64,000 nt of DNA from an uncultured Pseudomonadota bacterium (GCA_963708455.1 CAVPSQ010000003.1:241442-305441), one strand, 5' to 3'; numbered from the stretch's first letter, positions 30,451 through 47,444 are shown. Translations and numbers: made by a program. Notes: generated by a model from the letters alone, not told the origin.

Positions 30451-30631
30451 CGAGGGTATCCACTTAAGATGGGACACTTTGCAGGCCGACCGCAAAGTGC
30501 CGGCGAGGACGCCGGCGCTCCCAGGGTCGGATCGCCCCGCCTTAAGTGAGTAGCCTAATTCGACAAAGTAAACAGCATGATCCGTCTAAATAAACAGGCT
30601 ATCCCTTCACCAGCCGCTGAGTTCACAGGCG

Positions 30632-31585: not shown

Positions 31586-32899
31586 ACGCCTGGACCGATC
31601 GTATTCTATTGTTGACCGGGCTTGAGCCAGACCCAGACCCGGCTGGACCCCTCCCATCCGGACCCGGCGGAGCGGGCTACGCTGCTGCGGGTGCAGTTGG
31701 GCCGGTTGCAGGAGCAACTGGAGTTCTTCCACACCGGCGTGCGGCTGACCCATTTCGGCGCCTACGCCGACGCCGAGTATTTCCTGCGCGAGTTTCAGAC
31801 GGTGTTTCCCGGTCGCGAGGTGCATAACAATCTGGGCTACGGCTATCTGCAACGGGCACGCCGGGAACTGCCGCCCAATCTGGCCTACCGTTATTGTCTG
31901 CCCACCCTGCTCGATACCACCACCCGCGCCGCCGCTATCGTCCAGCGAGGCGGTGGCGAAGAGACGGCGGCGATCACGGCGGAAGCCCGCACCCTGCTCT
32001 TGCAGGCGGTGGATGCGCTCAACCGCGCGGTCGCGGCGGATTCCGCCTATCTGCCGGCCCGGCTCAATCTGGCGGCAGCGTATTTTTACCTCAATGAAAT
32101 CTACCAGGCCCGCGCCGTCATCGAGGCCGCGCGAAAGTTGGCGCCGGACGACCGGGAGGTGCAGAACCTGCGCGCCCTGATTCTCTATCGGGAAGGGGTG
32201 GACGCCGACACTTGGCCCAGCGCCCTGAAGCTGCTCGAAGACTTGGCGGCTCAACCGCAAGCCTCGGCGTGTCTGACCTACAACCTGGCGCAACTGCTGG
32301 AAGAACGGCAGCGTAGCGCCAAAGCCCGAACGGTCTGGACCGCACTGGCCAGGCGCCTGCCGGAATTACCGTTACCCTACCGGCAGACAGTGTGTGAACA
32401 CGCCGCGACGGAGGCCGCCTGCCGGACGCTGACCACCGCCCCGATCAAGGTCGCAGCGCCACCCTGGCCACTGCCGGCGCCGCTGGGACTGGATTTGCTT
32501 CAGGAACCGAACCGCGCCAAGCGGTATCTGGCGGGCTGGACACCCACCGCATTCGACTGGCAGCAACCGGGCCTGACAGCGTCTGATTCGGGAACCATCG
32601 TCATGGAGATGGGGACGGCGACCGCGTTCGACTGGCAACAACCGGGCCTGAAGGGGCATCTGTACCGCAGTCCGCCAGGGGCCTCGGTGCTGGAACTGGA
32701 CGGTTATGTGGAGCTGGTGGTGTTGTGGGGTGAGGGACTGGGGACAGAGGACACCCTGCGTACCTGTTGTGGTCAGCCGACCCTGCAACAGCCGGTAGTC
32801 GGCGGCACGCTCTGGTCCTATGGCAATCAGTGGGCCGCGCTGGTGCGGGAAGGGCAGGTGGCGGAAGTGTGGGTCAAGCGGCAGCCGGTCCGCCTGTGA
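31582..32899 (+). pseudogene. M48/TPR protease paralogue that has lost its catalytic core to a deletion of about 0.6 kb plus a frameshift
   Basis: ATG at 31582 (MNAWTDRILLL) is homologous to 39450. Homology then jumps to the equivalent of about 40101 (LSQTQTRLDPSHPDPAERATLL) in another frame. The HExxH region is absent. A 25-codon insertion with duplicated TAFDWQQPGL lies near 32550-32640. Confidence 0.8.
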
Positions 32900-32979
32900 G
32901 TGGGGGTAAAGCGACACGAGAAGACAAACGATCAGGTTGTGTCCGTCTATTGAGGACAGTAACCGTTGAGGAGAAAGTG

Positions 32980-34092
32980 ATGAGTTACCGAAAAGGTTTA
33001 CAAAGCTTGATGATAGCGGTGCTGTTAGTGGGTACAGGAGTGTTCAGCGCAGAGGCTCAGGAACCTACATTAAATGGTTTTTTGTACTGGAGATTCCTAC
33101 AAGATCAGTTCGATGTACGCTATCGGGCTGGGGATTACAAGAGTGCCGAGCGGCTTGCACAAGAGGCGTTGGAAATCGCAGGGCGTACTTTCCCTTTTGA
33201 ACATCCCGCCACGGCTACCAGTCTCAACTCCCTGGCTTTGGTGCGGCGGGCCCAGGGTCGCTACGAGGAGGCCGAGCAAATCTGCCGCCGCGCCCTGGCG
33301 ATTAACGAGAAGGTGCAGGTATCACCCCAAGATCTCATCACCGCCCACATTCTAACCACTTTGGCTTTAGTGCTACATGATCAGGGCCGCTACGGGGAGG
33401 CTGAACCGCTCTACCGCCGTGCTCTGGCGATTCGGGAGAAGGTGCTGGGGGCCGAGCATCCCAGCACCGCCGATACTCGCAACAGCCTGGCCTTGATGCT
33501 GGAGCACCAAAACCGGGACAGGAAGGCCGAGCCGCTTTACCGCCGCGCCCCGGCGATTGAGGAGAAAGCGCAGGGCGCTGAGCATCCCGACACCGCCGCC
33601 AGTCTCAATAACTTGGCCTCGTTGCTGAATGCCCAGGACCGCTACGAAAAAGCCGAGCCGCTCTACCGCCGCGCCCTGGCTATCTACCAGCAGACTGAAA
33701 CGCCAGCCAACCTTCTCGTTTCCAGCCGCAACTTGGGTCACTTTCTGGTAGCACGGGGCCGTCTCCAAGACGCCGTTCCCCACTACCGCACCGCCATCGA
33801 TACCCTGGACCACCTGTTTGCCTACACTCAGGGTTTGTCCGAAGAAGCCCGCCAGACCTTCCTGGAGCAGTATGCCTACGTTTACCGCGAATTCATCGAC
33901 TTGCTGCTGAAGCTGCACGAACAAGATCCCAAGGCCGGTTACGACTGGGAGATGCTCGCCGTCGCCTCCCGCAACCAGAGCCGGATCTTCAGCAAACTGC
34001 TGCGCCAGGCGGACGTGCAGAAATTCTCGGCCAAGCCGGCCTTCGTCGAACTCAAGCGCCATCAAGGTCAGCACTTCAACCCAGGTCGGTAG
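32980..34092 (+). pseudogene. Truncated TPR-CHAT paralogue (signal peptide plus 4 TPR units, no CHAT domain)
   Basis: MSYRKGLQSLMIAVLLVGTGVFSAEAQEP followed by 42-aa TPR units. Homology to 41386..44907 ends at about 34047 (..KPAFV). The frame then reads antisense PIN sequence until a stop. Confidence 0.8.
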
Positions 34093-34504: not shown

Positions 34505-34563
34505 GAATAGCCCAGTCCTCACCCGATTCAGCCCAGGAACCGAAACCAGCGACAAATCGATCA

Positions 34564-36114
34564 ATGGGGTCCGTCTATTTTGATCGACTACAACAGACAG
34601 GTACTTATCCTAACATCAGTGAAGAGCCATCACCTGAACCCACGGCAACGTCGCGCCTGGCTTGGTTGATCGGACTGCCAGCCCGAACCGGGATAGCTTC
34701 CCGACATCTTGGACAGAGATTGTCGAGCGCGATACAGCGCGTGCAACACGAGTGGCAGGCGCGGAGCGCTTTCCAGCGACATCTTCTAATCGGTTTGCTG
34801 GCGGGCGTTATCATCGAAATCGCCCTCCATTTCCTGCACCATCACCTGACTTTGCTTCAGGAACTCGAAGACATGGCTATCGACGTGATCATGAATCTTC
34901 AGCAGGCCACCACGATCGACAAACCGGCCATACCCTTCGTGATACTGGACATCGACGAGCCGACCTATCGCGCCTGGGACGAGCCTTTTCACGTTCCGCG
35001 CGACCGCTTGCTCAAGCTGATCGACTACGCGGTGCAGGGTGGGGCGGCGCTGGTGATCGTGGATGTCGACCTGAGCCAGCGCGGGCATGATCCGCTGGCC
35101 GATCAAGCGCTGCAGGACTATCTGGCCAACTATGGCGCCGCCGGTAAGCCGCCACTGCTGCTGGCGCGCGCCTTCCGCCCACCGTTGCCGGGGCAGCATG
35201 CTCTACCGACCGAGCGGCGCTCTTTTCTGGAGCAGGAGACCCGCCTTGCCGCTGCGCCCCTGATCCAGTGGGGATCGACCCTGTTCGAACTGGACCAGGG
35301 GCAACTGCTGCGACGCTGGCGCCTGTGGCAGATCACCTGCGATGAACAGACCCAGCAGCCGGTGGTGATCCCTTCTCTGCAACTGCTGGCGGTCGCTTTG
35401 CTGCGTCAACCCCATGAGGACCCTGGAACAGTGGCCGGGCAGGTGCACACGGCCTTGCAGACGCTGGCGCCGGCGCAGTGTGACGGGCGTCCTTCCCATC
35501 ATCACGAGGAAACGCTTGTCATTGCCGGTATGAAACTGAGCGCCCAGCCGCAAGGGATAGCCCAACGCATCCTCTATGAATTGCCCTGGCAACTGCATTC
35601 CGGCGAGGCTTATCCCACCCTGCCTCGACCGGATGGAACCTCGGCGCCTCTCTTATCGGTCTTCAGCGCTCTGCCCATTACCGCTGGAACCAAGCCGGTG
35701 GTCAGCGATGCCGTCACCGGGCGGGTGGTAGTTATCGGCGGCAGCTTCTGGGAAAGCCGTGATCTGTACCTGACGCCACTGGGCCAGATGCCGGGTTTTC
35801 TGGTGCTGGTCAACGCCATTCATTCCCTGCACCAGCATGAAGAAATCAAACCGCCGTCCCTGTATCTCAAGTTGCTGATCACCGTGGTATTGATCGTCCT
35901 GAGCAGCCTGATTTTTGCCAGCCTACGCTCGTTCCGAGCGATGCTCGTCGCCAGTCTGGTTATCATCATCGTCCTGCTGCCGGTCAGCTATTGCTGGTTC
36001 AAGGCCGGAGTCTGGCTGGATTTCGTGATTCCTTTTTGCGCCGTGGCGCTGCACTGGATGGCTGCTCGCTTCGAGGAACAGCGGCATGATCGGCACAGCA
36101 TCACAACCCATTGA
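34564..36114 (+). CDS. Stand-alone CHASE2-domain membrane protein (copy 1)
   Basis: 516 aa. N-terminal TM, then FVILDIDEPTYRAWDEPFHVPRDRLLKLIDYAVQGGAALVIVDVDLS (the CHASE2 core pattern), then three C-terminal TMs. No output domain. The exact start is uncertain. Confidence 0.75.
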   Translation: MGSVYFDRLQQTGTYPNISEEPSPEPTATSRLAWLIGLPARTGIASRHLGQRLSSAIQRVQHEWQARSAFQRHLLIGLLAGVIIEIALHFLHHHLTLLQELEDMAIDVIMNLQQATTIDKPAIPFVILDIDEPTYRAWDEPFHVPRDRLLKLIDYAVQGGAALVIVDVDLSQRGHDPLADQALQDYLANYGAAGKPPLLLARAFRPPLPGQHALPTERRSFLEQETRLAAAPLIQWGSTLFELDQGQLLRRWRLWQITCDEQTQQPVVIPSLQLLAVALLRQPHEDPGTVAGQVHTALQTLAPAQCDGRPSHHHEETLVIAGMKLSAQPQGIAQRILYELPWQLHSGEAYPTLPRPDGTSAPLLSVFSALPITAGTKPVVSDAVTGRVVVIGGSFWESRDLYLTPLGQMPGFLVLVNAIHSLHQHEEIKPPSLYLKLLITVVLIVLSSLIFASLRSFRAMLVASLVIIIVLLPVSYCWFKAGVWLDFVIPFCAVALHWMAARFEEQRHDRHSITTH

Positions 36115-36143
36115 ATTCAAGACTCGTTCTTTTGGAGGTGATT

Positions 36144-37031
36144 ATGAATCGCTCTGTGACATCGCTCGGTAGCCTGCTGCTCCTGGCCGCCAGCATCACG
36201 GCGTCGGCGGCGACCTGGATCGTAGACTTCACCGGTAAACCCGATGACTTTCGCCTGGAGCGTGGTAACCAGACGCTGCCGGTTGAAATCTACCGGCAAT
36301 TACAGCCGAATGACCGGCTGTTCGTACTCGTGGATGGTAGTGTCATTTCGCTGAAGCAGGACGATGGCCGCCGGATTGAGATTCAGAAAAACAACTCGCC
36401 TTACCTTATCCGGGACCAGGGCAAACCACCGGCAGCGCTGGATAATTTTCTGCATGAATGCTGTGCCTGGCTTACCCGGCAACGGCTGGAAGAGGTAGAT
36501 CGACCGGTGATCGGTATCTATACGCGGGGCGAGCCTGTCCCGCCCATCAGTTTGCCGTTGGCGCCGGGAGCAAAAATTCGGCTGGGCGCCGGTACTCGCT
36601 CACTGTATCTGGCCTGGCAAGGCGGCGAACCACCTTATCAGGTTCGCTTGACCAACAACGCCGGCAAGGAACTCATGAAACAGTCGGATATTGCCGCGCC
36701 CGGCGGTAACACCCAACCGTTCAAAACCACGCCCGTACCGCTGAAGCCGGGGCAGTATCGGCTGACCATCCGCGACGCTCAACGCCAAGCGGCAGTGGCA
36801 GTCGAGGTCGTGCCGGCTATCTCCCTGCCGCTACCGGCAACATTAGCAGGCATCACAGATGCCGATATCCGGCAAACTCTGGAAGCGCTGTGGCTGGCGA
36901 GCCAGGGCGAAGTCTGGTGGCTGGAAGCCTATCAACGAGTGATGCCGCTGGAAGGGCAACACCGGCCGGCACGGTTACTGCGCTACAGTCTGGAGAAGGG
37001 GCAGGCGCCACCACCGGTCAAGGCGGACTGA
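36144..37031 (+). CDS. Secreted hypothetical protein
   Basis: ATG at 36144 follows GGAGGTG. Signal peptide MNRSVTSLGSLLLLAASITASAATW. No family recognised. The pattern LYLAWQGGEPPYQVRLTN...LKPGQYRLTIRD is vaguely reminiscent of DUF928-type proteins. Confidence 0.7.
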   Translation: MNRSVTSLGSLLLLAASITASAATWIVDFTGKPDDFRLERGNQTLPVEIYRQLQPNDRLFVLVDGSVISLKQDDGRRIEIQKNNSPYLIRDQGKPPAALDNFLHECCAWLTRQRLEEVDRPVIGIYTRGEPVPPISLPLAPGAKIRLGAGTRSLYLAWQGGEPPYQVRLTNNAGKELMKQSDIAAPGGNTQPFKTTPVPLKPGQYRLTIRDAQRQAAVAVEVVPAISLPLPATLAGITDADIRQTLEALWLASQGEVWWLEAYQRVMPLEGQHRPARLLRYSLEKGQAPPPVKAD

Positions 37032-37058
37032 GCGGATAGGTCTGAGCAAGAGAGGTTG

Positions 37059-37171
37059 TTATCTCTGTCGCTGGAGCCACGCCATGAGTTCGGCCGGGGT
37101 ATGCCAATCCAGCAAGGCCTCCCCCAGCGCCTCCAATTCCGCCACCGGCAAGGTTTCGATCAAATCCAGCC
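37059..37171 (-). pseudogene. Internally deleted remnant of an Rpn-family nuclease gene
   Basis: Positions 37059 to about 37152 match the 3' end of 47732..48637 (..LPVAELEALGEALLDW.TPAELMAWLQRQ). Positions 37153-37171 (TTTCGATCAAATCCAGCCA) match an internal site of the full genes. Confidence 0.8.
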
Positions 37172-37271
37172 ATCAATGCCACGCTCAGTAAAAACCAGTC
37201 AGACCGTATAATAATATGCTTAAAGCAAGCTCTGTACGGCTGACCGGCTGTGGCGTTCAGGGGGCTGGAGA

Positions 37272-38150
37272 ATGGAACAAAACGACGACAATACCTATAA
37301 GGACCAACTTTTCGCACATTGGAAATGGCTGCAACGGTTGGCACAGCGCCGCTTTAAGAATAGCGTGCTGGCCGACCAGGCCCTCGATTTTGTCCTGGAA
37401 AAGTTGCAGGAAGACGATGGGTCCCGATTGCGAGCCTATCGAGGCGAAGCGCGTTTTTCCACCTATCTTGCGCATGTCGTGCAGCGGCTACTGGAAGATT
37501 TCGCTCGCCATCGGTTCGGGCGGCAGCGAACACCCGACTGGATTCAGGCGCAAGGTCCGCTCTGGGAACAGGTTTACCGGTTGCTGTGCCTGGAGCGGCT
37601 GTCGGCTACGGATGTCATTGAAACCTTGCGTGATGCCGTGCCGGGTGGCCGACCGCCCCAGATCATCCGGGAAGCCATCACCGTGATCCGAAAGCGGATC
37701 GTGAACTGTGGCGCCCCTTCCCCTGCGACCGCCGAACAGCCGCTGGTTGAACAGGAAGAACACCGCCATCGACCGTTGGCGGACGACTATCAGGTGCATC
37801 AGTTATCCCCCGAAGCGCTACAGGCCGCCGAGGAACGCACGCGGTTATTGACCCTCCTCTATGGCAGTGTGCTGGAACCGGCAGCCGACTCATCCCCGCC
37901 GGATGCCTGGCAACAGGCGGTGCAACGGCTGCGTGCGGCGTTGTCTCTCAGTTCCGAAGAGCGGTTACTGCTGCGATTGATCTACCAGGATGGCCTGTCG
38001 GTGGTGGAGGCAGGGCGTTTGTTGGGGCTGAGAACCGATCAGGTGCATGGCCGTTTGCGACGATTGTTGCAGCGCATTCGTCAACACGTGGAAGACAGCA
38101 GCCTGGCGCAGGAACTGAAAGGCTTATTACAGGAAGAGCACGATGGTTGA
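37272..38150 (+). CDS. ECF-like sigma-70 family sigma factor with a long inter-domain region
   Basis: 292 aa. Sigma-2-like N-terminus (ADQALDFVLEKL...FSTYLAHVVQRLLEDFARHRF) and sigma-4 C-terminus (LSSEERLLLRLIYQDGLSVVEAGRLLGLRTDQVHGRLRRLLQRIRQ), separated by about 120 aa. Confidence 0.8.
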   Translation: MEQNDDNTYKDQLFAHWKWLQRLAQRRFKNSVLADQALDFVLEKLQEDDGSRLRAYRGEARFSTYLAHVVQRLLEDFARHRFGRQRTPDWIQAQGPLWEQVYRLLCLERLSATDVIETLRDAVPGGRPPQIIREAITVIRKRIVNCGAPSPATAEQPLVEQEEHRHRPLADDYQVHQLSPEALQAAEERTRLLTLLYGSVLEPAADSSPPDAWQQAVQRLRAALSLSSEERLLLRLIYQDGLSVVEAGRLLGLRTDQVHGRLRRLLQRIRQHVEDSSLAQELKGLLQEEHDG

Positions 38151-38160
38151 GCCGAGTACC

Positions 38161-38318
38161 TGGGAGCGCCGGCGTCCCCGCCGGCCCGTACCTGGGAGCG
38201 CTGGCGTCCCCGCCGGCCCGTACCTGGGAGCGCTGGCGTCCCCGCCGGCCCGACCCTGGGAGCGCTGGCGTCCCCGCCGGCCCGACCCTGGGAGCGCTGG
38301 CGTCCCCGCCGGCCCGTT
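38161..38318. repeat. Five head-to-tail 32-bp GC-rich repeats (copy B)
   Basis: Unit starts at 38161, 38193, 38225, 38257 and 38289. Units 2-5 carry GCGCTGGCG instead of GCGCCGGCG. Units 3-4 end CGACCC instead of CGTACC. Confidence 0.95.
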
Positions 38319-38499
38319 CGAAGGTATCCACTTAAGATGGGACACTTTGCAGGCCGACCGCAAAGTGCCGGCGAGGACGCCGGCGCTCCCAGGGTCGGAT
38401 CGCCCTGCCTTAAGTGAGTAGCCTAATTCGACAAAGTAAACAGCATGATCCGTCTAAATAAACAGGCTATCCCTTCACCAGCCGCTGAGTTCACAGGCG

Positions 38500-39453
38500 A
38501 TGAAACCGTCCGCTTCCGATGAATCCACCCCACAAGATCGGCTGGCCGTGCTGGCCGCGCTGGCGATCCAGCCGCGTACCACGCCCGGTCCGTGTCCGCC
38601 GCCGGAGGAACTAGCAGCCTTCAGTAACGATCGGCTGCCCCCGGAAGCGCGTGCCCATATGCTCGCTCATCTGGATGCCTGCCCGGACTGTTATCGCGAC
38701 TGGCTGGCGGTGCAGCGCGTAGTGGCCGAGCAACCCACCGCTGTAGTGACGCCGTTGACGCGGCAGACGCCACGCCGGCGACCTGCCATCGGCTGGCGGT
38801 CCGGGCTAGGGATAGCGCTGGCCGCTGGTCTGCTGATAGCACTGGTGTGGTGGTGGCCGCTCGTCAGGGAACCGACACCGGCTGAACAGGTGGATCAGGC
38901 TTATGAAACGGTGTTGCAAGCATTGCCCGGTTCGCCAGTCGAGGCGATAGCGGCACGGCGTCTGCCGTGGGAAGAGGAGCCAGCGGGGTATGGGTTTGCG
39001 GCTGGCGGCGCCACGGAACCGGCGAATCGCGCCTTCGGCGCCGGTCTCTGGAGCGGCAGAGCCATGCTGCGCAGTCGCGATCCGCAAGCCATGCCGACGC
39101 TGCCGCCAGAATTGATTCCGCCGGCGGGGCAGGGGACGTGGGAGGCGACCGAATGGGCGCCCTATACGGTGCTGGGTCGCTGGCTGGTGCTGTTGCAGGT
39201 GCTCTGCGCCTCCCCGCAGGACGTTTCCGCCGCGCTCTGGGAACAGCAGCAGGCAATCGACCGGCGGTTACAGGCCGCCTTCCGCGAACGTCCAGCGAAT
39301 GAGGCTGCTGCCGCAGTGGTAATGAAGGCGCTGGCAGAACTCGCCGCCGGTTTCGACAGCCATCACGCCGGTAGCCGTCCGCAGCGACTTTGTCAGCAGG
39401 TCGAGCCGATACGGACCGGCCTGGAAGCCCGCTTGCTGCCGTCGGCGCCATGA
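38500..39453 (+). CDS. zf-HC2 anti-sigma factor (copy B)
   Basis: 317 aa. HLDACPDCYRDW, a single TM, and an extracytoplasmic C-terminal domain. The stop overlaps the next start (ATGA at 39450-39453). Confidence 0.8.
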   Translation: MKPSASDESTPQDRLAVLAALAIQPRTTPGPCPPPEELAAFSNDRLPPEARAHMLAHLDACPDCYRDWLAVQRVVAEQPTAVVTPLTRQTPRRRPAIGWRSGLGIALAAGLLIALVWWWPLVREPTPAEQVDQAYETVLQALPGSPVEAIAARRLPWEEEPAGYGFAAGGATEPANRAFGAGLWSGRAMLRSRDPQAMPTLPPELIPPAGQGTWEATEWAPYTVLGRWLVLLQVLCASPQDVSAALWEQQQAIDRRLQAAFRERPANEAAAAVVMKALAELAAGFDSHHAGSRPQRLCQQVEPIRTGLEARLLPSAP

Positions 39454-41306
39454 ACGCCTGGACCAATCGTATCCTACGGCTGCTAATCGGACTGCTGCTA
39501 TGGAGTGGGTTGGCTTCCGGCGATACGGATACCCCGCTCAACCCCCGTGCCCAGGTGCAGTTTTACATCACCACCTACAGCCTCGTGGACCCGCGTGAAC
39601 AGCCGCTGGTGGCGCGGGCCTATCGGATTTTCGAGGAACTGCGGCGGGTGGCCGAGCAGCCGGCCCGTCGTCAGCCGCAGTTGAAAATCGTCAACAGTCC
39701 GGGCGATCCCTGGGCGATTGCGTTGCCCGACGGCTTTATCGTGCTGTCCCGACGGGCGGTCGAGCTGGCCTATCAGGGGGTCGGTCAGCCGGAGGGCGAT
39801 GCCCGGCTGGCGTTCATTCTGGGTCACGAATTGGCTCATTTGGCCAAGGACGATTTCTGGCACCTGGAGGTCTATCAGGCGCTGGCCGGTGATCCCGAGC
39901 CGGCGGCGGTGACGTTGCGCCGGTTGCTGGAGCAGCAGGCCGATGTTCAGGGCGCCGAGGTCGAGCCGCGCTGGCGAGCGCTGCGTCTGAAAGAAGCCGA
40001 AGCCGATGATCGCGGCTTTCTGTACGCCGGATTGGCCGGCTATCGGGTGGATACGCTGCTGGGAGAACCCGGCGCGGGGAAAGCGGATTTTTTCCAATAC
40101 TGGCTGAGCCAGACCCAGGCTCGGCTGGACCCCTCCCATCCCGATCCGGCGGAGCGGGCCACGCTGCTGCGCGTGCAGTTGGGCCGGTTGCAGGAGAAAC
40201 TGGAGTTCTTCCACACCGGCGTGCGGCTGACCCATTTCGGCGCGTATGCCGACGCCGAGTATTTCCTGCGCGAGTTTCAGACGGTGTTTCCCGGTCGCGA
40301 GGTGCATAACAATCTGGGTTACGGCTATCTGCAACGGGCACGGCGGGAACTGCCGCCCAGTCTGGCCTACCGTTATTGTCTGCCCACCCTGCTCGATACC
40401 ACGACCCGCGCCGCCGCTATCGTCCAGCGGGGCGGCGGCGAAGAGACGGCGGCGATCACGGCGGAAGCCCGCACCCTGCTCATGCAGGCGGTGGATGCGC
40501 TCAACCGCGCGGTCGCAGCGGATTCGACCTATCTGCCGGCCCGGCTCAATCTGGCGGCGGCGTATTTTTATCTGAATGAAATCTACCAGGCCCGCGCCGT
40601 CATCGAGGCGGCGCGAAAGTTGGCGCCGGACGACCGGGAGGTGCAGAACCTGCGCGCCCTGATTCTCTATCGGGAAGGGGTGGACGCCGACACCTGGCCC
40701 AGCGCCCTCAAGTTGCTCGAAGACCTGGCGGCCCAACCACAAGCCTCGGCGTGCATGACCTACAACCTGGCGCAACTGCTGGAAGAACGGCAGCGTAGCG
40801 CCAAAGCCAGAGCGGTCTGGACCACGCTGGCCAAGCGCCTGCCGGAATTACCGCTACCTTACCGGCAGACGGTGTGCGAACACGCCGCGACGGAGGCCGT
40901 CTGCCGAGCGCTGACCACTGCTCCGGCCAAGGTCGCGGCGCCACCCTGGCCGCTGCCGGCGCCGCTGGGACTGGATTTGCTCCAGGAACCAGACCGCGTC
41001 AAACGGTATCTGACCGGCTGGACGGCAACCGCGTTCGACTGGCAACAACCGGGCCTGAAGGGGCATCTGTACCGCGGACCGCAAGGAGCGTCGGTGCTGG
41101 AACTGGACGGTTATGTGGAACTGGTGGTGCTGCGGGGCGAAGGGCTGGGAACAGAGGACACCTTGCGCAACGGCTGTGGTCAGCCGACTCTGCAACAGCC
41201 GGTGGTCGGCGGCACGCTCTGGTCGTATGGCAACCAGTGGGCCGCGCTGGTGCGGGATAGGCAGGTGGCGGAAGTGTGGGTCAAACGGCAGCCGGTCCGC
41301 CCGTGA
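39450..41306 (+). CDS. Exported M48-family zinc metalloprotease with TPR region and unknown C-terminal domain
   Basis: Signal peptide MNAWTNRILRLLIGLLLWSGLASG. HExxH in ILGHELAHLAKDD, third-ligand block KEAEADDRGFLYAGLAGY, then SHPDPAERA. TPR-like helices and a beta-rich tail of about 150 aa follow. Confidence 0.8.
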   Translation: MNAWTNRILRLLIGLLLWSGLASGDTDTPLNPRAQVQFYITTYSLVDPREQPLVARAYRIFEELRRVAEQPARRQPQLKIVNSPGDPWAIALPDGFIVLSRRAVELAYQGVGQPEGDARLAFILGHELAHLAKDDFWHLEVYQALAGDPEPAAVTLRRLLEQQADVQGAEVEPRWRALRLKEAEADDRGFLYAGLAGYRVDTLLGEPGAGKADFFQYWLSQTQARLDPSHPDPAERATLLRVQLGRLQEKLEFFHTGVRLTHFGAYADAEYFLREFQTVFPGREVHNNLGYGYLQRARRELPPSLAYRYCLPTLLDTTTRAAAIVQRGGGEETAAITAEARTLLMQAVDALNRAVAADSTYLPARLNLAAAYFYLNEIYQARAVIEAARKLAPDDREVQNLRALILYREGVDADTWPSALKLLEDLAAQPQASACMTYNLAQLLEERQRSAKARAVWTTLAKRLPELPLPYRQTVCEHAATEAVCRALTTAPAKVAAPPWPLPAPLGLDLLQEPDRVKRYLTGWTATAFDWQQPGLKGHLYRGPQGASVLELDGYVELVVLRGEGLGTEDTLRNGCGQPTLQQPVVGGTLWSYGNQWAALVRDRQVAEVWVKRQPVRP

Positions 41307-41385
41307 GTCGGGGGTAAAGCGACACGAGAAGACAAAGGTTCAAGTTGTGTCCGTCTATTGAGGGCAGCAACCGTTTGAGGAGAGC

Positions 41386-44300
41386 ATGATGAATTACCGC
41401 AAAGGTTTACAAATCTTGATGATGGTGGTGGTGTTGGTGGGTATAGGGGTGCTGAGCGCAGAGGCTCAGGAGCCGACATCCAATCCGGCTTGGCAACAGT
41501 GGAACGCCCTGCAAGATCAGGTTGCTGCGCGCTATCAAGCTAGGGATTATGCCGGCGCCGAGCGGCTTGCACGACAGGCGCTGGCGGTGGCGGAGCGTGC
41601 AGTTGGTTCCGAGCATCCCGCCACCGCCACCAGTCTCAGCAACCTGGCCGTGGTGCTGGGTAAGCAGGGCCGGTATGGGGAGGCCGAGCCGCTCCACCGC
41701 CGCGCCCTGGCGATTTGGGAGAAGGTGCTGGGCGCCGAGCATCCCAACACCGCCACCAGTCTCAACAACCTGGCCGAAGTGCTGCGGGTCCAGGGCCGCT
41801 ACGGGGAAGCCGAGCCACTGTGCCGTCGCGCCCTGGCGATTGACGAGAAAGTGCAGGGGGCCGAGCATCCCGACACCGCTCTCAGTCTCAACAACCTGGC
41901 CGCGGTGCTGCAGGTCCAGGGCCGGTACGGGGAGGCCGAGCCGCTCTACCGCCGCGCCTTGGCGATTGCCGAGAAGGTACTGGGGGTTGAGCATCCCAAC
42001 ACCGCCATCAGTCTCAGCAACCTGGCCGTGGTGCTGGGTAAGCAGGGCCGGTACGGGGAGGCCGAACTACTCCACCGCCGCGTCCTGGCGATTCGGGAGA
42101 AAGTGCTGGGGGTCGAGCATCCCGCCACCGCCACCAGTCTCAACAACCTAGCCGCGGTGCTGAAGGATCAGGGCCACTACGGGGAAGCCGAGCCGCTCCT
42201 CCGCCGCGCACTGGCGATTTGGGAGAAAGTGCTGGGGGCCGAGCATCCCGATACCGCCCTCAGTTTAAACAACCTGGCCGCGGTGCTGAAGGATCAGGGC
42301 CACTACGGAGAGGCTGAGTCGCTCCTCCGCCGCGCCCTGGCGATTAACGAGAAAGCGCTGGGGGCCGAGCATCCCGACACCGCCACCAGTCTCAACAACC
42401 TGGCCGCGGTGCTGGACCACCAGGGCCGCTACGGGGAGGCCGAGCCGCTTTACCGTCGCGCTCTGGCGATTCAAGAGAAAGCGATGGGGGCCGAGCATCC
42501 CGACACCGCTCTCAGTATCAACAACCTGGCCGTGGTGCTGGGTAAGCAGGGCCGGTATGGGGAGGCCGAGCCGCTCTACCGCCGCGCCCTAGCGATTCGG
42601 GAGAAAGCGCTGGGGGCCGAGCATCCCGACACCGCCACCAGTCTCAACAACCTGGCTATGGTGCTGAAGGATCAGGGCCACTACGGAGAGGCTGAGTCGC
42701 TCCTCCGCCGCGCCCTGGCGATTAACGAGAAAGCGCTGGGGGCCGAGCATCCCGACACCGCCACCAGTCTCAACAACCTGGCCGCGGTGCTGGACCACCA
42801 GGGCCGCTACGGGGAGGCCGAGCCGCTCTACCGCCGCGCCCTAGCGATTCGGGAGAAAGCGCTGGGGGCCGAGCATCCCGACACCGCCACCAGTCTCAAC
42901 AACCTGGCCTTGGTGCTGGGTGCCCAGAGCCGGCCTGGGGAGGCCGAGCCACTTTTCCGGCGCGCCGTGGCCATTGATCAGCAGGCTGAAGAACCGGCCA
43001 TGCTTCTCCTTCACAGTCGCAACTTGGGTTTCTTCCTGGTAAAACGGGGTCGTCTCCAAGACGCCGCCCCCCACTACCGTACCGCCATCGACACCCTGGA
43101 CCGGCTGTTTGCCTACACCCAAGGTCTGCCCGAGGAAGCCCGCCAGACCTTCCTGGGGCAGTATGCCTACGTTTACCGCGAATTCATCGACCTGCTGCTG
43201 AAGCTGCACGAGCAAGACTCCAAGGCCGGCTACGACCGGGAGGTGCTCGCCGTCGCCTCCCGTAACCAGAGCCGGATCTTCAGCGAACTGCTGCGGCAGG
43301 CGGATGTACAGAAATTCTCGGCTGAGCCAGCCTTCGTCACTATCCAGCAACGCTGGCAAGACCTGCAAACTCAACTCGCCACTCTGCGCGGGAAACGGGC
43401 CACCATCCCCATCAGCGAACCGGAGGCGGAAACCCGTAAAGCTAATCTCACCCAGGAAATCGCCAAAGCTGACGCTGAGCTGAACAAGGTTACGGAACAA
43501 TTGCAGCGCGACTATCCGCGTTTCCTGGAACTCCAGCAACCGGCGCCGGTGACGCTAGTGCAACTGCAACAGACCCTTTTGCGCCCCGATGAAGTCCTGC
43601 TCAGCTTTGTTCTGCTCAAGGACCGCACCGTGCTGCTGGCCGTCACCCCGAAGAACTTTACCCTCCACACGGTCGCCGTGTCTGAAAAAGCCATGACCGA
43701 GCGTGTCGACAAAATCCGCCAGCCGCTGGAACAGGTCGCTCAACTCAACAAACTGGACCCGGAGGAGTTGTATAAGCTGTATCAAGACCTCATCGCCCCG
43801 GTCGAGGACACCCTGCACGGTGCCCAGCGGGTGCTGGTGGTAGCCGATGGCGCCCTCTACAACCTGCCGCTGGAACTGCTGGTGACAGCCTACGGCGAAC
43901 CGGAACAGCGGGCGTTCCGGCAGGCCCAACGGGATGCCGATGGCAGCAGCGCCGAGCACCCCCAGCTGGGCGAATACGCCACCCTCCCGTACCTGGCCGA
44001 CCGCTACCGCTTCAGCTATCTGCCCAGCCTGGCGGCGCTGGTCTCGCAGCGCAACTACCAGAAACCGTCGGTACCGCTGACCCGCAATCTGGTCGCCTTT
44101 GCCGATCCGATCTTCGAGCCGGAACAGGGTAAGTCCCCGGCCAAGCCGACCTCGGCAGCCACCAAAGGCTATTCCGCCGCCACCCAGGCCACCTTGCAGT
44201 TGCTGGCTCGCAGCGGGATGGACAGTCAGTTGCCCCGATTACCGGAAACCGCCGACGAAGTCCGCGCCATGGCCAAGCTCGTGGGCGCCAACTCCCAGCT

Positions 44301-44907
44301 TTACCTGCGCGACAAAGCCCAGGAATACACCGCCAAAGACTTGGCCAAGAAGGGCGACCTGAACGGATTACGGTATCTGGTATTCTCCACCCACGGTCTG
44401 CTCGGTGGCAAGTTCCGGCCAGAGCAGCAGGCGCAAACATCCCCGTCAACCCTGAGCCTGGACCGGCCCCTCCCGGCCACTCCTATCGAAAAGCTCGGCC
44501 AACCGGCGCTGGCGCTGACCCTGGTCGGTGACCTCCACGACGAAGACGGCTTACTGACCATGAGCGAAGTGCTCGGTCTGGACATCAACACCGACTTGGT
44601 CGTGCTATCCGCTTGCAACACGGCGGGCGAGAAACCCAACCAGGGTGAAGGTTTCGTCGGCCTGACCCGTTCGTTCCTGTATGCCGGCGCCCGCCGCCTG
44701 CTGGTCAGCCACTGGAAGGTCGCCAGCGAGTCCACCCGCGACCTGATGGTCGCCACCTTTACCCAACTGCAAGCCGGCCAGACCCCGCTCGACGCCCTGA
44801 CCGAGGCCCGCCGCCAGTTGCGGGGCCGGACCTGGAGCACCACATCCGGCCACGTTTCCCTTGCCCATCCTTACTTCTGGGCGCCGTTCGTGGTGGTGGG
44901 GGATTAA
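41386..44907 (+). CDS. Exported TPR-CHAT (caspase-like) protease
   Basis: 1173 aa. Signal or anchor peptide MMNYRKGLQILMMVVVLVGIGVLSAEA, then 11 consecutive 42-aa TPR units. The C-terminal CHAT domain has His context YLVFSTHGLL and Cys context LVVLSACNTAG. Confidence 0.85.
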   Translation: MMNYRKGLQILMMVVVLVGIGVLSAEAQEPTSNPAWQQWNALQDQVAARYQARDYAGAERLARQALAVAERAVGSEHPATATSLSNLAVVLGKQGRYGEAEPLHRRALAIWEKVLGAEHPNTATSLNNLAEVLRVQGRYGEAEPLCRRALAIDEKVQGAEHPDTALSLNNLAAVLQVQGRYGEAEPLYRRALAIAEKVLGVEHPNTAISLSNLAVVLGKQGRYGEAELLHRRVLAIREKVLGVEHPATATSLNNLAAVLKDQGHYGEAEPLLRRALAIWEKVLGAEHPDTALSLNNLAAVLKDQGHYGEAESLLRRALAINEKALGAEHPDTATSLNNLAAVLDHQGRYGEAEPLYRRALAIQEKAMGAEHPDTALSINNLAVVLGKQGRYGEAEPLYRRALAIREKALGAEHPDTATSLNNLAMVLKDQGHYGEAESLLRRALAINEKALGAEHPDTATSLNNLAAVLDHQGRYGEAEPLYRRALAIREKALGAEHPDTATSLNNLALVLGAQSRPGEAEPLFRRAVAIDQQAEEPAMLLLHSRNLGFFLVKRGRLQDAAPHYRTAIDTLDRLFAYTQGLPEEARQTFLGQYAYVYREFIDLLLKLHEQDSKAGYDREVLAVASRNQSRIFSELLRQADVQKFSAEPAFVTIQQRWQDLQTQLATLRGKRATIPISEPEAETRKANLTQEIAKADAELNKVTEQLQRDYPRFLELQQPAPVTLVQLQQTLLRPDEVLLSFVLLKDRTVLLAVTPKNFTLHTVAVSEKAMTERVDKIRQPLEQVAQLNKLDPEELYKLYQDLIAPVEDTLHGAQRVLVVADGALYNLPLELLVTAYGEPEQRAFRQAQRDADGSSAEHPQLGEYATLPYLADRYRFSYLPSLAALVSQRNYQKPSVPLTRNLVAFADPIFEPEQGKSPAKPTSAATKGYSAATQATLQLLARSGMDSQLPRLPETADEVRAMAKLVGANSQLYLRDKAQEYTAKDLAKKGDLNGLRYLVFSTHGLLGGKFRPEQQAQTSPSTLSLDRPLPATPIEKLGQPALALTLVGDLHDEDGLLTMSEVLGLDINTDLVVLSACNTAGEKPNQGEGFVGLTRSFLYAGARRLLVSHWKVASESTRDLMVATFTQLQAGQTPLDALTEARRQLRGRTWSTTSGHVSLAHPYFWAPFVVVGD
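42283..42827. repeat. Internal duplication with a 378-bp period (3 TPR units) inside the TPR-CHAT gene
   Basis: 42283-42449 and 42661-42827 are identical over 167 bp by direct comparison. The basic unit period is 126 bp. Confidence 0.9.
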
Positions 44908-44918: not shown

Positions 44919-45800
44919 CTATCCCTGGCGCTGGAGCCACGCCATAAGTTCGGCAGGGGTGCGCCAATCCAGCAGAGCCTCCCCCAGCGCCTCCAACTCC
45001 GCCACCGGCAAGGTCCGAATCCGGCTCTCCACTTCCGTCGGCACCGCTCCCAGCCGGCGGTGCAAGAGCCGTAGCACCAGCGCCGCTGCTTCTTGCTGCT
45101 GGCCCTCGGTGCGGCCTTCGGCGTGCCCTTCGGTGCGCCCTTCGGCGAACACGTCTTGATAGAAGCGGGTTTGTTTCAACTCGACATCAGGTAAGTGCAA
45201 CATGCGTTGAATCTCCTCGCGCGATAAATGCGGCAGCTTGTACACCACAATCGTTTCGATCAAATCCAGCCACCCTGTCCAGTCGGGGTCCGCTGTTGGA
45301 CCACCCCGGACCTGCAACAGCGCTTGCGCCTGACTCACCGCTTCTTCCGGTTCGGCGACGATCAATTGGATCAGTTGCAAGCCTGGCGTCAGATCGGCGC
45401 GTCCCTTCAAGTCTTCGAGATAAACCCGCTTGACCCAGGGACTGTCCAGCAGCGGCTGGTAGGCTGTCGGCGGCTGAGGGTCTGCCTTCCGACTCGGAAA
45501 AATCACCACCGCCCGCCACGGTCCCTGCCACCGTCGCCGGTACAGAAACAGAAAAATCTGGGTAAACCAACGACTGTAGAAGTCGTTATTCAGTTGAAAC
45601 TGCGTCTCGACAAACACCCCTGGCAGGTGGGGCAGTTCCGGCGGTGGCAGTAGCAACCCATCGAGCCGGAAGCTGGTCTGTTTCACCTCTTCGGCATGCA
45701 GCGTGTAGACCGCCCCGGCAGGCGCCGGCCAATCAGCGAGTTCAAACACCAACCCCGGCAGTTCTTGAAACAAGCGGTAGAACAGACTATCAGTTTTCAT
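44919..45800 (-). CDS. Rpn-family recombination-promoting nuclease / putative transposase (PD-(D/E)XK plus DUF4351-like tail)
   Basis: Start at MKTDSLFYRLFQELPGLVFELA within ORF 44919..45866. Core FRLDGLL...GVFVETQFQ. EGRTEG repeats and a C-terminal LPVAELEALGEALLDW tail. Confidence 0.75.
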   Translation of the reverse strand: MKTDSLFYRLFQELPGLVFELADWPAPAGAVYTLHAEEVKQTSFRLDGLLLPPPELPHLPGVFVETQFQLNNDFYSRWFTQIFLFLYRRRWQGPWRAVVIFPSRKADPQPPTAYQPLLDSPWVKRVYLEDLKGRADLTPGLQLIQLIVAEPEEAVSQAQALLQVRGGPTADPDWTGWLDLIETIVVYKLPHLSREEIQRMLHLPDVELKQTRFYQDVFAEGRTEGHAEGRTEGQQQEAAALVLRLLHRRLGAVPTEVESRIRTLPVAELEALGEALLDWRTPAELMAWLQRQG

Positions 45801-45916
45801 AAAATTGCCTGAGAGTAGAGGCACATTATTCGGCCCAGGAACCGAAACCAGCGACAAAGCAATCAACGCGGTCCGTCTATTCTGATCGACTAGAACATAC
45901 AGGCACTTATCCTAAC

Positions 45917-47416: not shown

Positions 47417-47444
47417 ATTCAAAACTTGTTCTGGCTAATCATCA

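What the first reader, a model, noticed from the sequence alone, without database searches (positions are those of the whole stretch)
34564..44907. Candidate undescribed system: exported TPR-CHAT caspase-like protease and M48 protease wired to an ECF-like sigma/anti-sigma pair, a CHASE2-only sensor and a secreted partner
Six intact same-strand genes lie in 10.3 kb:
- a CHASE2 membrane protein with no output domain;
- a secreted protein of unknown family;
- a 292-aa ECF-like sigma factor;
- a zf-HC2 single-pass anti-sigma factor with an outside domain of about 190 aa;
- a signal-peptide M48/TPR metalloprotease, whose start overlaps the anti-sigma stop (ATGA);
- a signal-peptide protein with 11 TPR units and a CHAT domain, with a recognisable His/Cys dyad (STHG, SACNTAG).

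Every sensory and proteolytic part is predicted to be extracytoplasmic.

Two pieces of established knowledge bear on this. ECF sigma factors are commonly released by regulated proteolysis of their anti-sigma factor (the RseA/DegS/RseP paradigm). In type III-E CRISPR systems, a TPR-CHAT protease (Craspase) cleaves Csx30, a protein that holds an ECF-type sigma factor.

Here a TPR-CHAT sits beside a sigma/anti-sigma pair with no gRAMP or CRISPR present. The inference is a CRISPR-independent, envelope-located caspase-like switch, either a stress or defence signalling cascade or a death effector. Repeated duplication and decay of the cassette around it fit the behaviour of a fast-evolving conflict locus.
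Basis: partly seen in the sequence, partly recalled or inferred. Interest (0 to 1): 0.85.

Follow-up and report, generated by a model that had tools for sequence, protein, structure and literature searches.

The report
Sigma-controlled exported caspase-like protease cassette
A little-known sigma/anti-sigma pair carries its own promoter signature in front of an exported caspase-like protease, a zinc protease, a CHASE2 membrane protein and an unnamed secreted partner, so these genes form one regulated envelope module whose purpose is still unknown.

Summary
The six genes are real and their domains are as described. One caveat applies. The CHASE2 ORF at 34564 starts inside a promoter, and its canonical ATG is mutated to ATC; the duplicate at 45917 is intact.

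The cassette joins two conserved modules:
- A small sigma family with a full-length-conserved anti-sigma partner, found in about 80 loci. Neighbours vary: a YfbK-like VWA protein in Desulfobulbales, M48-TPR in Magnetococcales.
- A widespread triad of an exported caspase-fold protease (TPR-CHAT or C14), a CHASE2-only membrane protein and a secreted family ("SEC") absent from Pfam. SEC has 1161 representative clusters. Fusions exist of SEC with TPR-CHAT, C14 and CHASE2.

The modules co-occur in two distant lineages with different gene order.

New evidence is an ECF-type motif, GACAAA-N14-CCGTCTA. It occurs six times in the window (0.04 expected), always just upstream of anti-sigma/M48, TPR-CHAT or CHASE2/SEC. 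Across the family it precedes the anti-sigma gene (56 of 78 loci) and the VWA gene (53 of 58).

So the wiring is real at least as sigma-to-protease transcription. Cleavage of the anti-sigma factor by CHAT or M48 is untested, and CHAT cannot be the general mechanism. There is no CRISPR array in the window and no known defence-system match for the six proteins. I rate it a new variant of a known kind, moderately to highly interesting.

The parts
30100..30283 (+). Remnant of the sigma gene (last 60 codons), the left edge of the decayed upstream copy of the cassette
   Evidence: 90% identical to 37967-38150; translation.
30562..30588 (+). Promoter-like motif GACAAA-N14-CCGTCTA upstream of the anti-sigma paralog
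   Evidence: Exact match.
30632..31585 (+). Intact anti-sigma paralog (317 aa, zf-HC2, one TM segment)
   Evidence: zf-HC2 25.1 bits. Against the main copy it has 56 synonymous and 47 non-synonymous codon differences.
31622..32899 (+). Truncated M48-TPR paralog that lacks the protease domain
   Evidence: 31619-32576 is 93.5% identical to 40102-41058. Only TPR families hit.
32923..32949 (+). Promoter-like motif upstream of the truncated TPR gene
   Evidence: Exact match.
32980..34092 (+). Truncated TPR-CHAT paralog: signal-like N-terminus and TPR repeats, no CHAT domain
34551..34577 (+). Promoter-like motif upstream of CHASE2 copy 1; it overlaps the ORF's ATG at 34564
34615..36114 (+). CHASE2-only membrane protein, copy 1. 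The ORF is open from 34564, but the canonical start at 34615 is ATC.
   Evidence: CHASE2 80.6 bits; start-region alignment; 1 + 3 TM-like segments.
36144..37031 (+). SEC: secreted partner protein of a family not in Pfam (two beta-sandwich domains plus a C-terminal helical part)
37272..38150 (+). Sigma factor of a small distinct family: region 2, a helical insert, a disordered linker, then region 4
   Evidence: TIGR02937 52.8 bits; 45 homologues; model and fold matches.
38156..38317 (+). Five tandem 32-nt GC-rich repeats in the sigma/anti-sigma spacer (also at 30294-30449). The 92-aa ORF here is not conserved and is probably not a gene.
38430..38456 (+). Promoter-like motif upstream of the anti-sigma/M48 operon
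   Evidence: Exact match. The position is conserved across the family.
38500..39453 (+). Anti-sigma factor: HxxxCxxC motif, one TM segment, and a periplasmic domain of about 190 aa conserved across the family
39450..41306 (+). Exported M48 zinc protease with TPR and a C-terminal domain of unknown family; translationally coupled to the anti-sigma gene (ATGA)
   Evidence: The same gene order occurs in Magnetococcales L002-L004.
41331..41357 (+). Promoter-like motif upstream of TPR-CHAT
   Evidence: Exact match.
41386..44907 (+). Exported TPR-CHAT caspase-like protease with an intact His/Cys dyad
44919..45866 (-). DUF2887/DUF4351 (Rpn-like nuclease/transposase) gene; a second copy lies at 47732-48637
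45853..45879 (+). Promoter-like motif upstream of CHASE2 copy 2
   Evidence: Exact match.
45917..47416 (+). CHASE2-only membrane protein, copy 2, with canonical ATG and promoter
   Evidence: 97.5% identical to copy 1; CHASE2 80.7 bits.
47417..47704 (+). Remnant of a second SEC gene (last 95 or so codons)

Best explanation
The locus is a transcriptionally unified envelope module made of two older parts.

**Part A** is a sigma factor of a small, distinct sigma-70 family together with its membrane anti-sigma factor. The anti-sigma factor has a cytoplasmic HxxxCxxC sigma-binding part, one TM segment and a conserved periplasmic domain.

**Part B** is an extracytoplasmic protease triad:
- an exported TPR-CHAT caspase-like protease;
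- a CHASE2-only membrane protein;
- a secreted partner, SEC.

These three probably work as a physical complex at the outer face of the inner membrane.

**How it works.**
- *Shown from sequence:* the cognate promoter of this sigma family (GACAAA-N14-CCGTCTA) stands in front of anti-sigma/M48, TPR-CHAT and CHASE2/SEC.
- *Inferred:* when the anti-sigma factor releases the sigma factor, the cell makes more anti-sigma (negative feedback), a BepA-like M48-TPR protease and the CHAT/CHASE2/SEC module. The sigma gene itself has a different upstream sequence, with a TATAAT-like element.
- *Not known:* the stimulus, and how it reaches the anti-sigma factor.
  - The co-translated M48-TPR is the better candidate for acting on the anti-sigma periplasmic domain.
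  - CHAT acting on the anti-sigma factor is possible only as a lineage-specific feedback.
- *Also not known:* the substrate and purpose of the CHAT triad.

The tandem duplication, with complementary decay, leaves one usable copy of each gene.
For: **Promoter motif**
- Six exact same-strand matches in 64 kb, against 0.04 expected. All lie 29-44 nt upstream of the starts of anti-sigma, TPR-CHAT and CHASE2, and of the duplicates of these genes.
- Relatives carry it at the same genes.
- A variant lies 10-20 nt after the sigma stop, ahead of the anti-sigma gene, in 56 of 78 family loci. Control windows show it in 4.8%.
- It lies ahead of the divergent YfbK-like VWA gene in 53 of 58 loci, against 5.9% of controls.
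- In the independent L098 and L008 lineage it precedes anti-sigma, CHASE2/SEC and TPR-CHAT.

**Co-occurrence**
- Sigma/anti-sigma with M48-TPR occurs in Magnetococcales.
- Sigma/anti-sigma with TPR-CHAT, CHASE2 and SEC occurs in L008 and L098-L100.
- The window's gene order occurs in L088.

**The triad as a unit**
- CHASE2 and SEC are adjacent in all but one of the SEC loci that have enough flanking sequence to tell; L107 is the exception.
- A CHAT or C14 protease is nearby in most.
- Fusions exist of SEC with TPR-CHAT, SEC with C14, and CHASE2-TM with SEC.

**Intact active sites:**

**Export signals:**
Against: - No expression or binding data exist. The motif is a sequence inference, and its -35/-10 assignment is by analogy with ECF promoters.
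- The six window matches represent three independent sites, each doubled by the duplication.
- The sigma gene itself lacks the motif, so classical ECF autoregulation is not shown.
- Close relatives carry decayed parts, so the module is dispensable and may be partly inactive:
  - sigma is frameshifted in L001 and L081;
  - CHAT is interrupted in L112;
  - an IS21 element sits in the M48 gene in L085.
- CHASE2 copy 1 lacks its start codon.
- The triad often occurs without any sigma pair, so the coupling is lineage-specific.
Confidence: 0.6

Rival explanations
1. The exported proteases are the input. TPR-CHAT and/or M48-TPR cleave the periplasmic domain of the anti-sigma factor (site-1 cleavage). 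Intramembrane proteolysis follows and the sigma factor is released. CHASE2 and SEC sense the stimulus and gate the protease.
For: - M48-TPR is translationally coupled to the anti-sigma gene, and it follows the anti-sigma gene in Magnetococcales too.
- All parts are predicted to share the periplasmic compartment.
- Both active sites are intact.
- Established knowledge offers precedents: DegS/RseP acting on RseA, and Craspase cleaving Csx30, which holds a sigma factor.
- This model is compatible with the promoter result if there is feedback.
Against: - The anti-sigma periplasmic domain is conserved over its full length in about 80 loci.
  - CHAT, CHASE2 and SEC were found near the sigma gene in only one of the 80 genome loci.
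  - M48 was found in three of them.
- The motif places the proteases downstream of the sigma factor.
- No cleavage evidence of any kind exists.
Confidence: 0.25
2. The locus is an anti-phage or other conflict system. The exported caspase-like protease acts as a death or defence effector that is switched on through the sigma factor.
For: - The locus lies in a variable region with toxin-antitoxin genes, Rpn-like genes, a Tn5-type transposase and a BREX system 28 kb away.
- The cassette shows rapid duplication and decay.
- The literature links bacterial caspases with ECF sigma factors in predicted conflict systems (PMC8195603).
Against: - PADLOC gave no family-specific match for the six proteins; TPR-CHAT had one significant generic TPR hit and two marginal ones.
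- All parts face the periplasm, where phage nucleic acid is not sensed.
- The sigma family's main partner elsewhere is a VWA lipoprotein-like gene next to housekeeping genes.
- No toxin-like effector was identified.
Confidence: 0.1
3. The adjacency is a chance product of recombination in a rearrangement hot spot. The sigma pair and the protease triad are functionally unrelated.
For: - Each module occurs alone in most loci.
- Junctions in the window carry Rpn-like and toxin-antitoxin remnants.
Against: - The shared promoter motif, with non-conserved spacers, sits in front of all three units.
- The combination recurs in a second lineage with a different gene order and its own motif copies.
- Both families are rare. 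The sigma family gave 45 hits among 5.8 billion sequences.
Confidence: 0.05

Closest known systems
E. coli sigma-E envelope stress system (RpoE/RseA with the regulon members DegP and BepA; from established knowledge)
   Same: - A membrane anti-sigma factor with a periplasmic domain.
- A regulon that includes the anti-sigma gene and exported quality-control proteases. BepA is a periplasmic M48 protease with a C-terminal TPR domain, the same architecture as the 39450-41306 product.
   Different: - The sigma factor belongs to another family and carries a structured insert.
- The anti-sigma factor is of the zinc-finger type with an unrelated periplasmic domain.
- The M48-TPR gave no phmmer match to any solved structure, so none to solved BepA, and matched no BepA model in NCBIfam.
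- A caspase-like protease, a CHASE2 protein and SEC have no counterpart in the sigma-E regulon.
Type III-E CRISPR Craspase (gRAMP with TPR-CHAT, Csx30, Csx31 and an RpoE-like sigma factor)
   Same: A TPR-CHAT protease is encoded beside a sigma-70-family sigma factor and its inhibitor.
   Different: - There is no CRISPR array in the window.
- None of the six proteins matches a cas model in PADLOC. The other ORFs in the window were not screened for gRAMP.
- The sigma factor scores 17 bits against the CAS_III-E_sigma model, whose cut-off is 100.
- The TPR-CHAT here has a signal-like N-terminus and periplasmic partners, whereas Craspase is cytoplasmic and RNA-guided.
[quoted passage not shown]
   Same: Caspase-fold proteases, CHASE2 and ECF-type sigma factors are linked by gene neighbourhood. 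A metacaspase-CHASE2 fusion is known in Trichodesmium.
   Different: - In those systems the caspase is drawn as cytoplasmic and fused to the sensor.
- Here the protease is a separate exported TPR-CHAT, and CHASE2 has no fused domain.
- The partner is SEC rather than EACC2 or DUF1822.
- None of those papers reports the promoter motif or the SEC family, as far as my searches show.
Cyanobacterial CHASE2 / DUF928 gene pairs (Nostoc punctiforme cluster with WD40 proteins; PMC5587647)
   Same: A CHASE2 sensor gene sits next to a gene for a small secreted protein of unknown function, near repeat-containing proteins.
   Different: None of the 141 SEC-family members scanned hits DUF928 or any other Pfam family at E <= 0.01. 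Any relationship would be analogy or very remote homology.
ECF289 (ECF sigma factors whose neighbouring anti-sigma candidate carries von Willebrand and DUF3520/YfbK_C domains; PMC7826278)
   Same: In Desulfobulbales this sigma family sits beside a protein with vWF_A, VWA and YfbK_C domains.
   Different: - Here a separate zinc-finger anti-sigma gene is present. The VWA gene is divergent and carries the family's promoter motif, so it looks like a target.
- Membership of this sigma factor in ECF289 was not tested.

Membership tests
ECF (group 4) sigma factors | Match to the sigma-70 ECF profile | tested here: met
   TIGR02937 at 52.8 bits against a cut-off of 42.9, spanning residues 12-272.
ECF (group 4) sigma factors | Only regions 2 and 4, joined by a short linker, with no region 3 | tested here: inconclusive
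   - About 100 residues lie between regions 2 and 4.
- The AlphaFold model (pLDDT 81) shows confident helices at 89-142, then a disordered stretch at 151-176.
- The best fold matches are the group-3 factors SigB and sigma-28, followed by ECF factors.
ECF (group 4) sigma factors | Adjacent anti-sigma gene and a bipartite AAC / CGT-type target promoter at its own operon | tested here: met
   - The anti-sigma gene follows the sigma gene in 80 loci.
- The GACA[C/A]A-N14-CCGTC motif lies ahead of the anti-sigma gene in 56 of 78 loci.
- The motif is not upstream of the sigma gene itself in the window.
Zinc-binding anti-sigma factors (zf-HC2 / ZAS) | HxxxCxxC motif in an N-terminal anti-sigma domain, followed by a TM segment | tested here: met
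   - H56-x3-C60-x2-C63, with C32 upstream, is read from the sequence.
- zf-HC2 scores 18.2 bits (below the 22.2 cut-off) for the main copy and 25.1 for the paralog.
- 7 of 14 family members hit zf-HC2.
- The motif is lost in the L008, L098, L011 and L079 proteins.
- Zinc binding was not tested.
Peptidase M48, BepA-like | HExxH plus a downstream Glu ligand, with a C-terminal TPR domain and an export signal | tested here: met
   - Peptidase_M48 33.3 bits against a cut-off of 20.3; TPR_19 35.6 bits.
- HELAH and EAEAD are present in the sequence.
- The N-terminus MNAWTNRILRLLIGLLLWSGLASG is signal-like.
Peptidase M48, BepA-like | Orthology to BepA | tested here: not met
   No NCBIfam BepA model was hit. 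There was no phmmer match to any solved structure at E <= 0.01.
CHAT (caspase-haemoglobinase fold) proteases | CHAT profile match with the catalytic His and Cys | tested here: met
   PF12770 at 172.8 bits over 4-289 of 289 profile positions. His in STHG and Cys in LSACNT are invariant in 8 aligned CHAT domains.
Type III-E CRISPR Craspase system | gRAMP/Cas7-11, a CRISPR array, Csx30/Csx31 and a CASP-sigma factor | tested here: not met
   - There is no repeat-spacer array in 64 kb.
- The CAS_III-E_sigma model scores 17.1 bits against a cut-off of 100.
- PADLOC finds no Cas protein among the six.
CHASE2 sensor proteins | [quoted passage not shown] | tested here: met
   PF05226 at 80.6 bits. TM-like segments lie at about 56-74, 416-434, 442-460 and 466-484 of the 499-aa form. 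No output domain is present.
DUF928 | Match of SEC or its relatives to PF06051 | tested here: not met
   No hit for SEC at E <= 10, and none for 141 relatives at E <= 0.01.
Known anti-phage defence systems (PADLOC-DB 2.0) | Match of any component to a defence-system model | tested here: not met
   The only significant hit is a generic TPR model on TPR-CHAT, plus two marginal hits near the E-value limit.

The most novel reading that the evidence does not exclude
The triad is an undescribed, widespread extracytoplasmic caspase signalling or effector machine. It consists of an exported caspase-fold protease (TPR-CHAT or C14), a CHASE2-only membrane protein and SEC. SEC bridges the protease to CHASE2. 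Proteolysis in the periplasm is the signal or the output. In some lineages, including this one, the machine is coupled in a feedback loop to a dedicated sigma/anti-sigma pair of a new family. The loop would resemble a periplasmic counterpart of the Craspase / Csx30 / sigma logic. This would also give the long-orphan CHASE2 domain a first functional context: a protease-associated receptor.
Probability: 0.25. Interest if true: 0.85.

Novelty: new variant of a known kind. Interest (0 to 1): 0.64.

Why it matters
- **A ready experiment.** The locus offers a sigma factor, its anti-sigma factor, a precise candidate promoter (GACAAA-N14-CCGTCTA) and three predicted target operons. The regulon claim can be tested in a heterologous host within weeks.
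- **A handle on exported bacterial caspase-like proteases.** Their substrates and roles are essentially unknown.
- **A handle on CHASE2.** This common sensor domain has no known ligand.
- **A new family to study.** SEC is a sizeable secreted-protein family (1161 representative clusters) with no Pfam model. It is fused in some genomes to CHAT, C14 or CHASE2, which argues for direct physical partnership.
- **A general rule for this sigma family.** It switches on its anti-sigma gene plus a locally encoded envelope protein: VWA, M48, or the CHAT triad.

Tried and rejected
1. **DUF928 identity of SEC.** No Pfam hit for SEC or for 141 relatives.
2. **A small ORF between the sigma and anti-sigma genes** (38143-38421, also called in L088). 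The protein is not conserved, and the DNA is an array of 32-nt GC-rich repeats. I rejected it as a gene.
3. **Solved structures.**
   - The phmmer searches with the CHAT half and with M48-TPR found nothing.
   - The anti-sigma family profile gave only insignificant hits, including the anti-sigma factors DdvA and 3hug at E of about 0.4-0.5.
4. **Fold of SEC.** Only generic Ig-like matches with low TM-scores.
5. **Sigma-70 promoter and terminator consensus scan.** Counts were at or below the shuffled expectation.
6. **Exact look-up of the window's sigma factor.** Not on record.
7. **Organism name from cluster members.** No names were returned. The only hint is SEC at 83% identity to a Candidatus Competibacteraceae MAG protein.
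8. **First try of the search for related loci with 35 sigma factors.** It failed for lack of a conserved stretch; a 15-sequence subset worked.
9. **Word-index search with the anti-sigma factor.** It found only 6 close relatives, so the periplasmic domain could not be modelled with a deep alignment.
10. **ECF classification paper.** No supplementary text was held, so assignment to an ECF group was not possible.

Full report
**1. What is in the window**

| Gene | Coordinates | Evidence |
|---|---|---|
| CHASE2-only membrane protein | 34564/34615-36114 | CHASE2 80.6 bits, no other domain |
| SEC, secreted partner | 36144-37031 | No Pfam or NCBIfam family |
| Sigma factor, 292 aa | 37272-38150 | TIGR02937 sigma70-ECF 52.8 bits, cut-off 42.9 |
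| Anti-sigma factor, 317 aa | 38500-39453 | HxxxCxxC motif; weak zf-HC2 hit |
| M48-TPR protease | 39450-41306 | Peptidase_M48 33.3 bits and TPR; HELAH and EAEAD motifs; ATG overlaps the anti-sigma stop as ATGA |
| TPR-CHAT, 1173 aa | 41386-44907 | CHAT 172.8 bits; 10.8 copies of a 126-nt TPR unit |

- The CHAT His (STHG) and Cys (LSACNT) are invariant in an alignment of eight CHAT domains drawn from distant loci.
- Hydropathy supports the predicted topology:
  - CHASE2 has 1 + 3 TM-like segments.
  - The anti-sigma factor has one TM-like segment, at 104-122.
  - SEC and TPR-CHAT have hydrophobic, signal-like N-termini. The M48-TPR N-terminus also reads as signal-like but did not reach the hydropathy threshold.
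- No signal-peptide predictor was available, so export is inferred.

**2. Duplication and decay**

A self-comparison shows a tandem duplication of the whole cassette with complementary losses.

Upstream copy:
- the last 60 codons of sigma (30100-30283);
- an intact anti-sigma paralog (30632-31585);
- an M48-TPR gene without its protease domain;
- a TPR gene without CHAT (32980-34092).

Downstream copy:
- a second CHASE2 gene (45917-47416, 97.5% identical to the first);
- only the last 95 or so codons of a second SEC gene.

Rpn-like DUF2887/DUF4351 genes and a UPF0175/DUF3368 toxin-antitoxin remnant sit at the junctions.

- The ATG at 34564 lies inside a promoter-like motif.
- The start codon used by copy 2 and by the relatives L085 and L088 is ATC in copy 1.
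- The locus therefore keeps one obviously usable copy of each gene, but these are spread over both duplicates.

**3. The sigma / anti-sigma pair is a module of its own**

- The sigma factor belongs to a small family, with 45 hits among 5.8 billion sequences.
- A scan of one genome per species found 80 loci. Most are in Desulfobulbales. Others are in Magnetococcales, Thiorhodococcus, Microbulbifer and a gammaproteobacterial MAG.
- An iterated profile finds a full-length homologue of the anti-sigma factor, periplasmic domain included, next to the sigma gene in 80 loci.
- That periplasmic domain matches no Pfam family or solved structure.
- The neighbours of the pair differ by lineage:
  - a divergent YfbK-like protein (vWF_A, VWA and YfbK_C domains) in Desulfobulbales: its gene cluster occurs in 75 of 80 loci, and a VWA profile hits 60;
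  - M48-TPR directly after the anti-sigma gene in three Magnetococcales loci;
  - CHAT, CHASE2 and SEC only in L008 among these 80 loci.
- The AlphaFold model of the sigma factor (pLDDT 81) shows region 2, a confident helical insert at 89-142, a disordered stretch, and region 4.
- All of the 50 best fold matches listed are sigma factors. The group-3 factors SigB and sigma-28 rank ahead of ECF factors.
- "ECF-like" is therefore the right level of claim.

**4. The protease triad is another module, and a large one**

- The word-index search gave SEC few relatives. A profile search of 1.84 billion representatives found 1161 clusters at E <= 0.001 and 761 at E <= 1e-10.
- None of 141 members scanned matches a Pfam family, apart from four fusion proteins.
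- The fusions are informative:

| Protein | Architecture |
|---|---|
| P0120 | signal peptide, SEC, TPR, CHAT |
| P0175 | signal peptide, SEC, Peptidase_C14 |
| P0165 | SEC, TPR |
| P0212 | CHASE2, extra TM segment, SEC |

- CHASE2 and SEC are adjacent in every locus reached from the SEC side that has enough flank, except L107.
- A caspase-fold protease (TPR-CHAT, Sel1-C14 or WD40-C14) lies nearby in most of them. Sometimes a trypsin-like protease or a ShlB-type transporter is also present.
- These proteases carry signal-like or lipoprotein-like N-termini.
- Many of these loci have no sigma gene.
- The SEC model (pLDDT 72) has two beta-sandwich domains and a C-terminal helical part. Its fold matches are only generic Ig-like ones.

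**5. The two modules are joined, and the join is regulatory**

The modules co-occur in two lineages:
- the window's lineage (L088 has the same gene order; L085, L111 and L112 have parts of it);
- the lineage of L008 and L098-L100. There sigma identity is about 40%, the CHAT domain is only about 26% identical, and the order is TPR-CHAT on the minus strand, then sigma, anti-sigma, CHASE2 and SEC.

Reading the intergenic regions showed a shared bipartite motif, GACAAA-N14-CCGTCTA.
- It has six exact matches in the 64-kb window against 0.04 expected. All are on the + strand.
- Each ends 29-44 nt before the start of anti-sigma/M48, TPR-CHAT or CHASE2/SEC, or of their duplicates.
- The spacers differ between the three kinds of site, so these are three independent occurrences, each doubled by the duplication.
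- Relatives carry the motif at the same genes, and Thiorhodococcus carries it ahead of its anti-sigma gene.

Family-wide, the variant GACA[C/A]A-N14-CCGTC behaves the same way:

| Position | Loci with motif | Control windows |
|---|---|---|
| 10-20 nt after the sigma stop, ahead of anti-sigma | 56 of 78 | 4.8% |
| Minus strand, ahead of the divergent VWA gene | 53 of 58 | 5.9% |

- In L098 and L008 it precedes anti-sigma, CHASE2/SEC and TPR-CHAT.
- The motif has the form of ECF promoters, with a CGTC-containing -10 element.
- I take it to be the cognate promoter of this sigma family.
- The window's sigma gene has a different upstream sequence with a TATAAT-like element.

**6. Interpretation**

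What the sequence shows:
- the genes and their domains;
- the two modules;
- their repeated association;
- the shared, family-specific motif.

What I infer:
- The sigma factor, once freed from the anti-sigma factor, transcribes anti-sigma/M48, TPR-CHAT and CHASE2/SEC.
- CHAT, SEC and CHASE2 act together at the periplasmic face of the membrane.

What remains unknown:
- the stimulus;
- the way the anti-sigma factor is inactivated;
- the protease substrates.

M48-TPR is the more plausible actor, because it is co-translated with the anti-sigma factor and this arrangement is conserved in Magnetococcales. CHAT cannot be the family's general mechanism, because most loci with the same anti-sigma domain lack it.

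A defence role has no direct support:
- PADLOC gave no family-specific match for the six proteins.
- There is no CRISPR array in the window.
- The type III-E sigma model scores far below its cut-off.

The module is dispensable:
- In close relatives the sigma gene is frameshifted.
- CHAT is interrupted there.
- M48 is split by an IS21 element.

**7. Comparison with what is known**

- The closest working analogy is the sigma-E system, whose regulon includes the anti-sigma gene and the M48-TPR protease BepA (established knowledge).
- Associations of caspases with ECF sigma factors and with CHASE2 have been noted computationally. Examples are the EACC2-caspase systems (PMC8195603), and the metacaspase-CHASE2 fusion and metacaspase/sigma operons (PMC3501461).
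- A CHASE2/DUF928 pair has been noted in Nostoc (PMC5587647).
- ECF289 is linked to VWA/DUF3520 proteins (PMC7826278).
- I found no description of the SEC family, of the exported CHAT/CHASE2/SEC triad, of this sigma family, or of its promoter.

**8. Verdict**

- Novelty: a new variant of a known kind (a sigma/anti-sigma-controlled envelope protease regulon). It contains a truly uncharacterised and widespread protease triad.
- Interest: 0.64.

Noticed in passing
L005-L080 (for example L068:4611-9848, minus strand): In Desulfobulbales the same sigma/anti-sigma pair sits next to a divergent YfbK-like protein (vWF_A, VWA and YfbK_C domains). The family's promoter motif lies ahead of that gene in 53 of 58 loci. 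The VWA protein therefore looks like a regulon member there.
   Followed up: partly
window:34551-34620 and window:45853-45920: CHASE2 copy 1 has ATC where copy 2 and relatives have the start ATG. The ORF's upstream ATG lies inside the promoter motif. The intact CHASE2 gene (copy 2) and the intact SEC gene (beside copy 1) are thus in different duplicates.
   Followed up: yes
window:38156-38317 and window:30294-30449: Five tandem copies of a 32-nt GC-rich unit (GGGAGCGCCGGCGTCCCCGCCGGCCCGTACCT) lie between the sigma and anti-sigma genes, with a reverse-complement copy about 60 nt downstream. They create a spurious 92-aa ORF. They could form strong hairpins that insulate the sigma gene from the anti-sigma promoter.
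   Followed up: partly
window:303-6163: A BREX defence system lies at the start of the window. BrxC/PglY scores 1491 bits in PADLOC and is followed by a PglZ-domain protein.
   Followed up: no
window:44919-45866 and window:47732-48637 (minus strand); remnant near window:37060-37153: Two Rpn-like DUF2887/DUF4351 genes, about 90% identical, and a remnant of a third lie at the duplication junctions. A UPF0175/DUF3368 toxin-antitoxin remnant lies at 34093-34504. These elements probably mediated the rearrangements.
   Followed up: partly
window:49191-51128, 52275-53036, 53893-55284, 58237-61710: Downstream of the cassette lie an eCIS_core-domain protein, a DUF4062 protein, a Tn5-type transposase and a 1157-aa ORF with no Pfam or PADLOC match. 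GC content falls to 43% in the last 2 kb of the window.
   Followed up: no
L001:5429-6306 and L081:10001-10878: In the closest relative (88% identity) the sigma gene is split by a frameshift into 192-aa and 115-aa ORFs. The identical split product is seen on 13 contigs from several samples. There the gene follows surE, pcm, an RpoS-like sigma gene and a DUF498 gene, and the four contigs with retrievable sequence end shortly after the sigma gene.
   Followed up: partly
L008:11060-11971, L098:6965-8026, L011:3255-4193, L079:10743-11672: The anti-sigma proteins of these lineages have lost the HxxxCxxC cysteines. Those of L008, L098 and L011 have also lost the two conserved periplasmic cysteines. 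All four keep the overall alignment, so zinc or redox chemistry is not essential to the family.
   Followed up: no
L095:3635-4651: In one metagenomic locus a ShlB-type POTRA protein (a two-partner-secretion transporter) follows the CHASE2/SEC pair. This hints that some triad components may cross the outer membrane.
   Followed up: no
L003:9511-9537 and L004:9841-9867 (minus strand): The Magnetococcales loci carry a strong motif copy on the minus strand just upstream of the sigma gene. It points at a gene that I did not identify.
   Followed up: no
window:37272-38150 (residues C106, C146): Two cysteines in the insert between sigma regions 2 and 4 are conserved in at least 90% of the 35 aligned family members. 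Their role is unknown.
   Followed up: no
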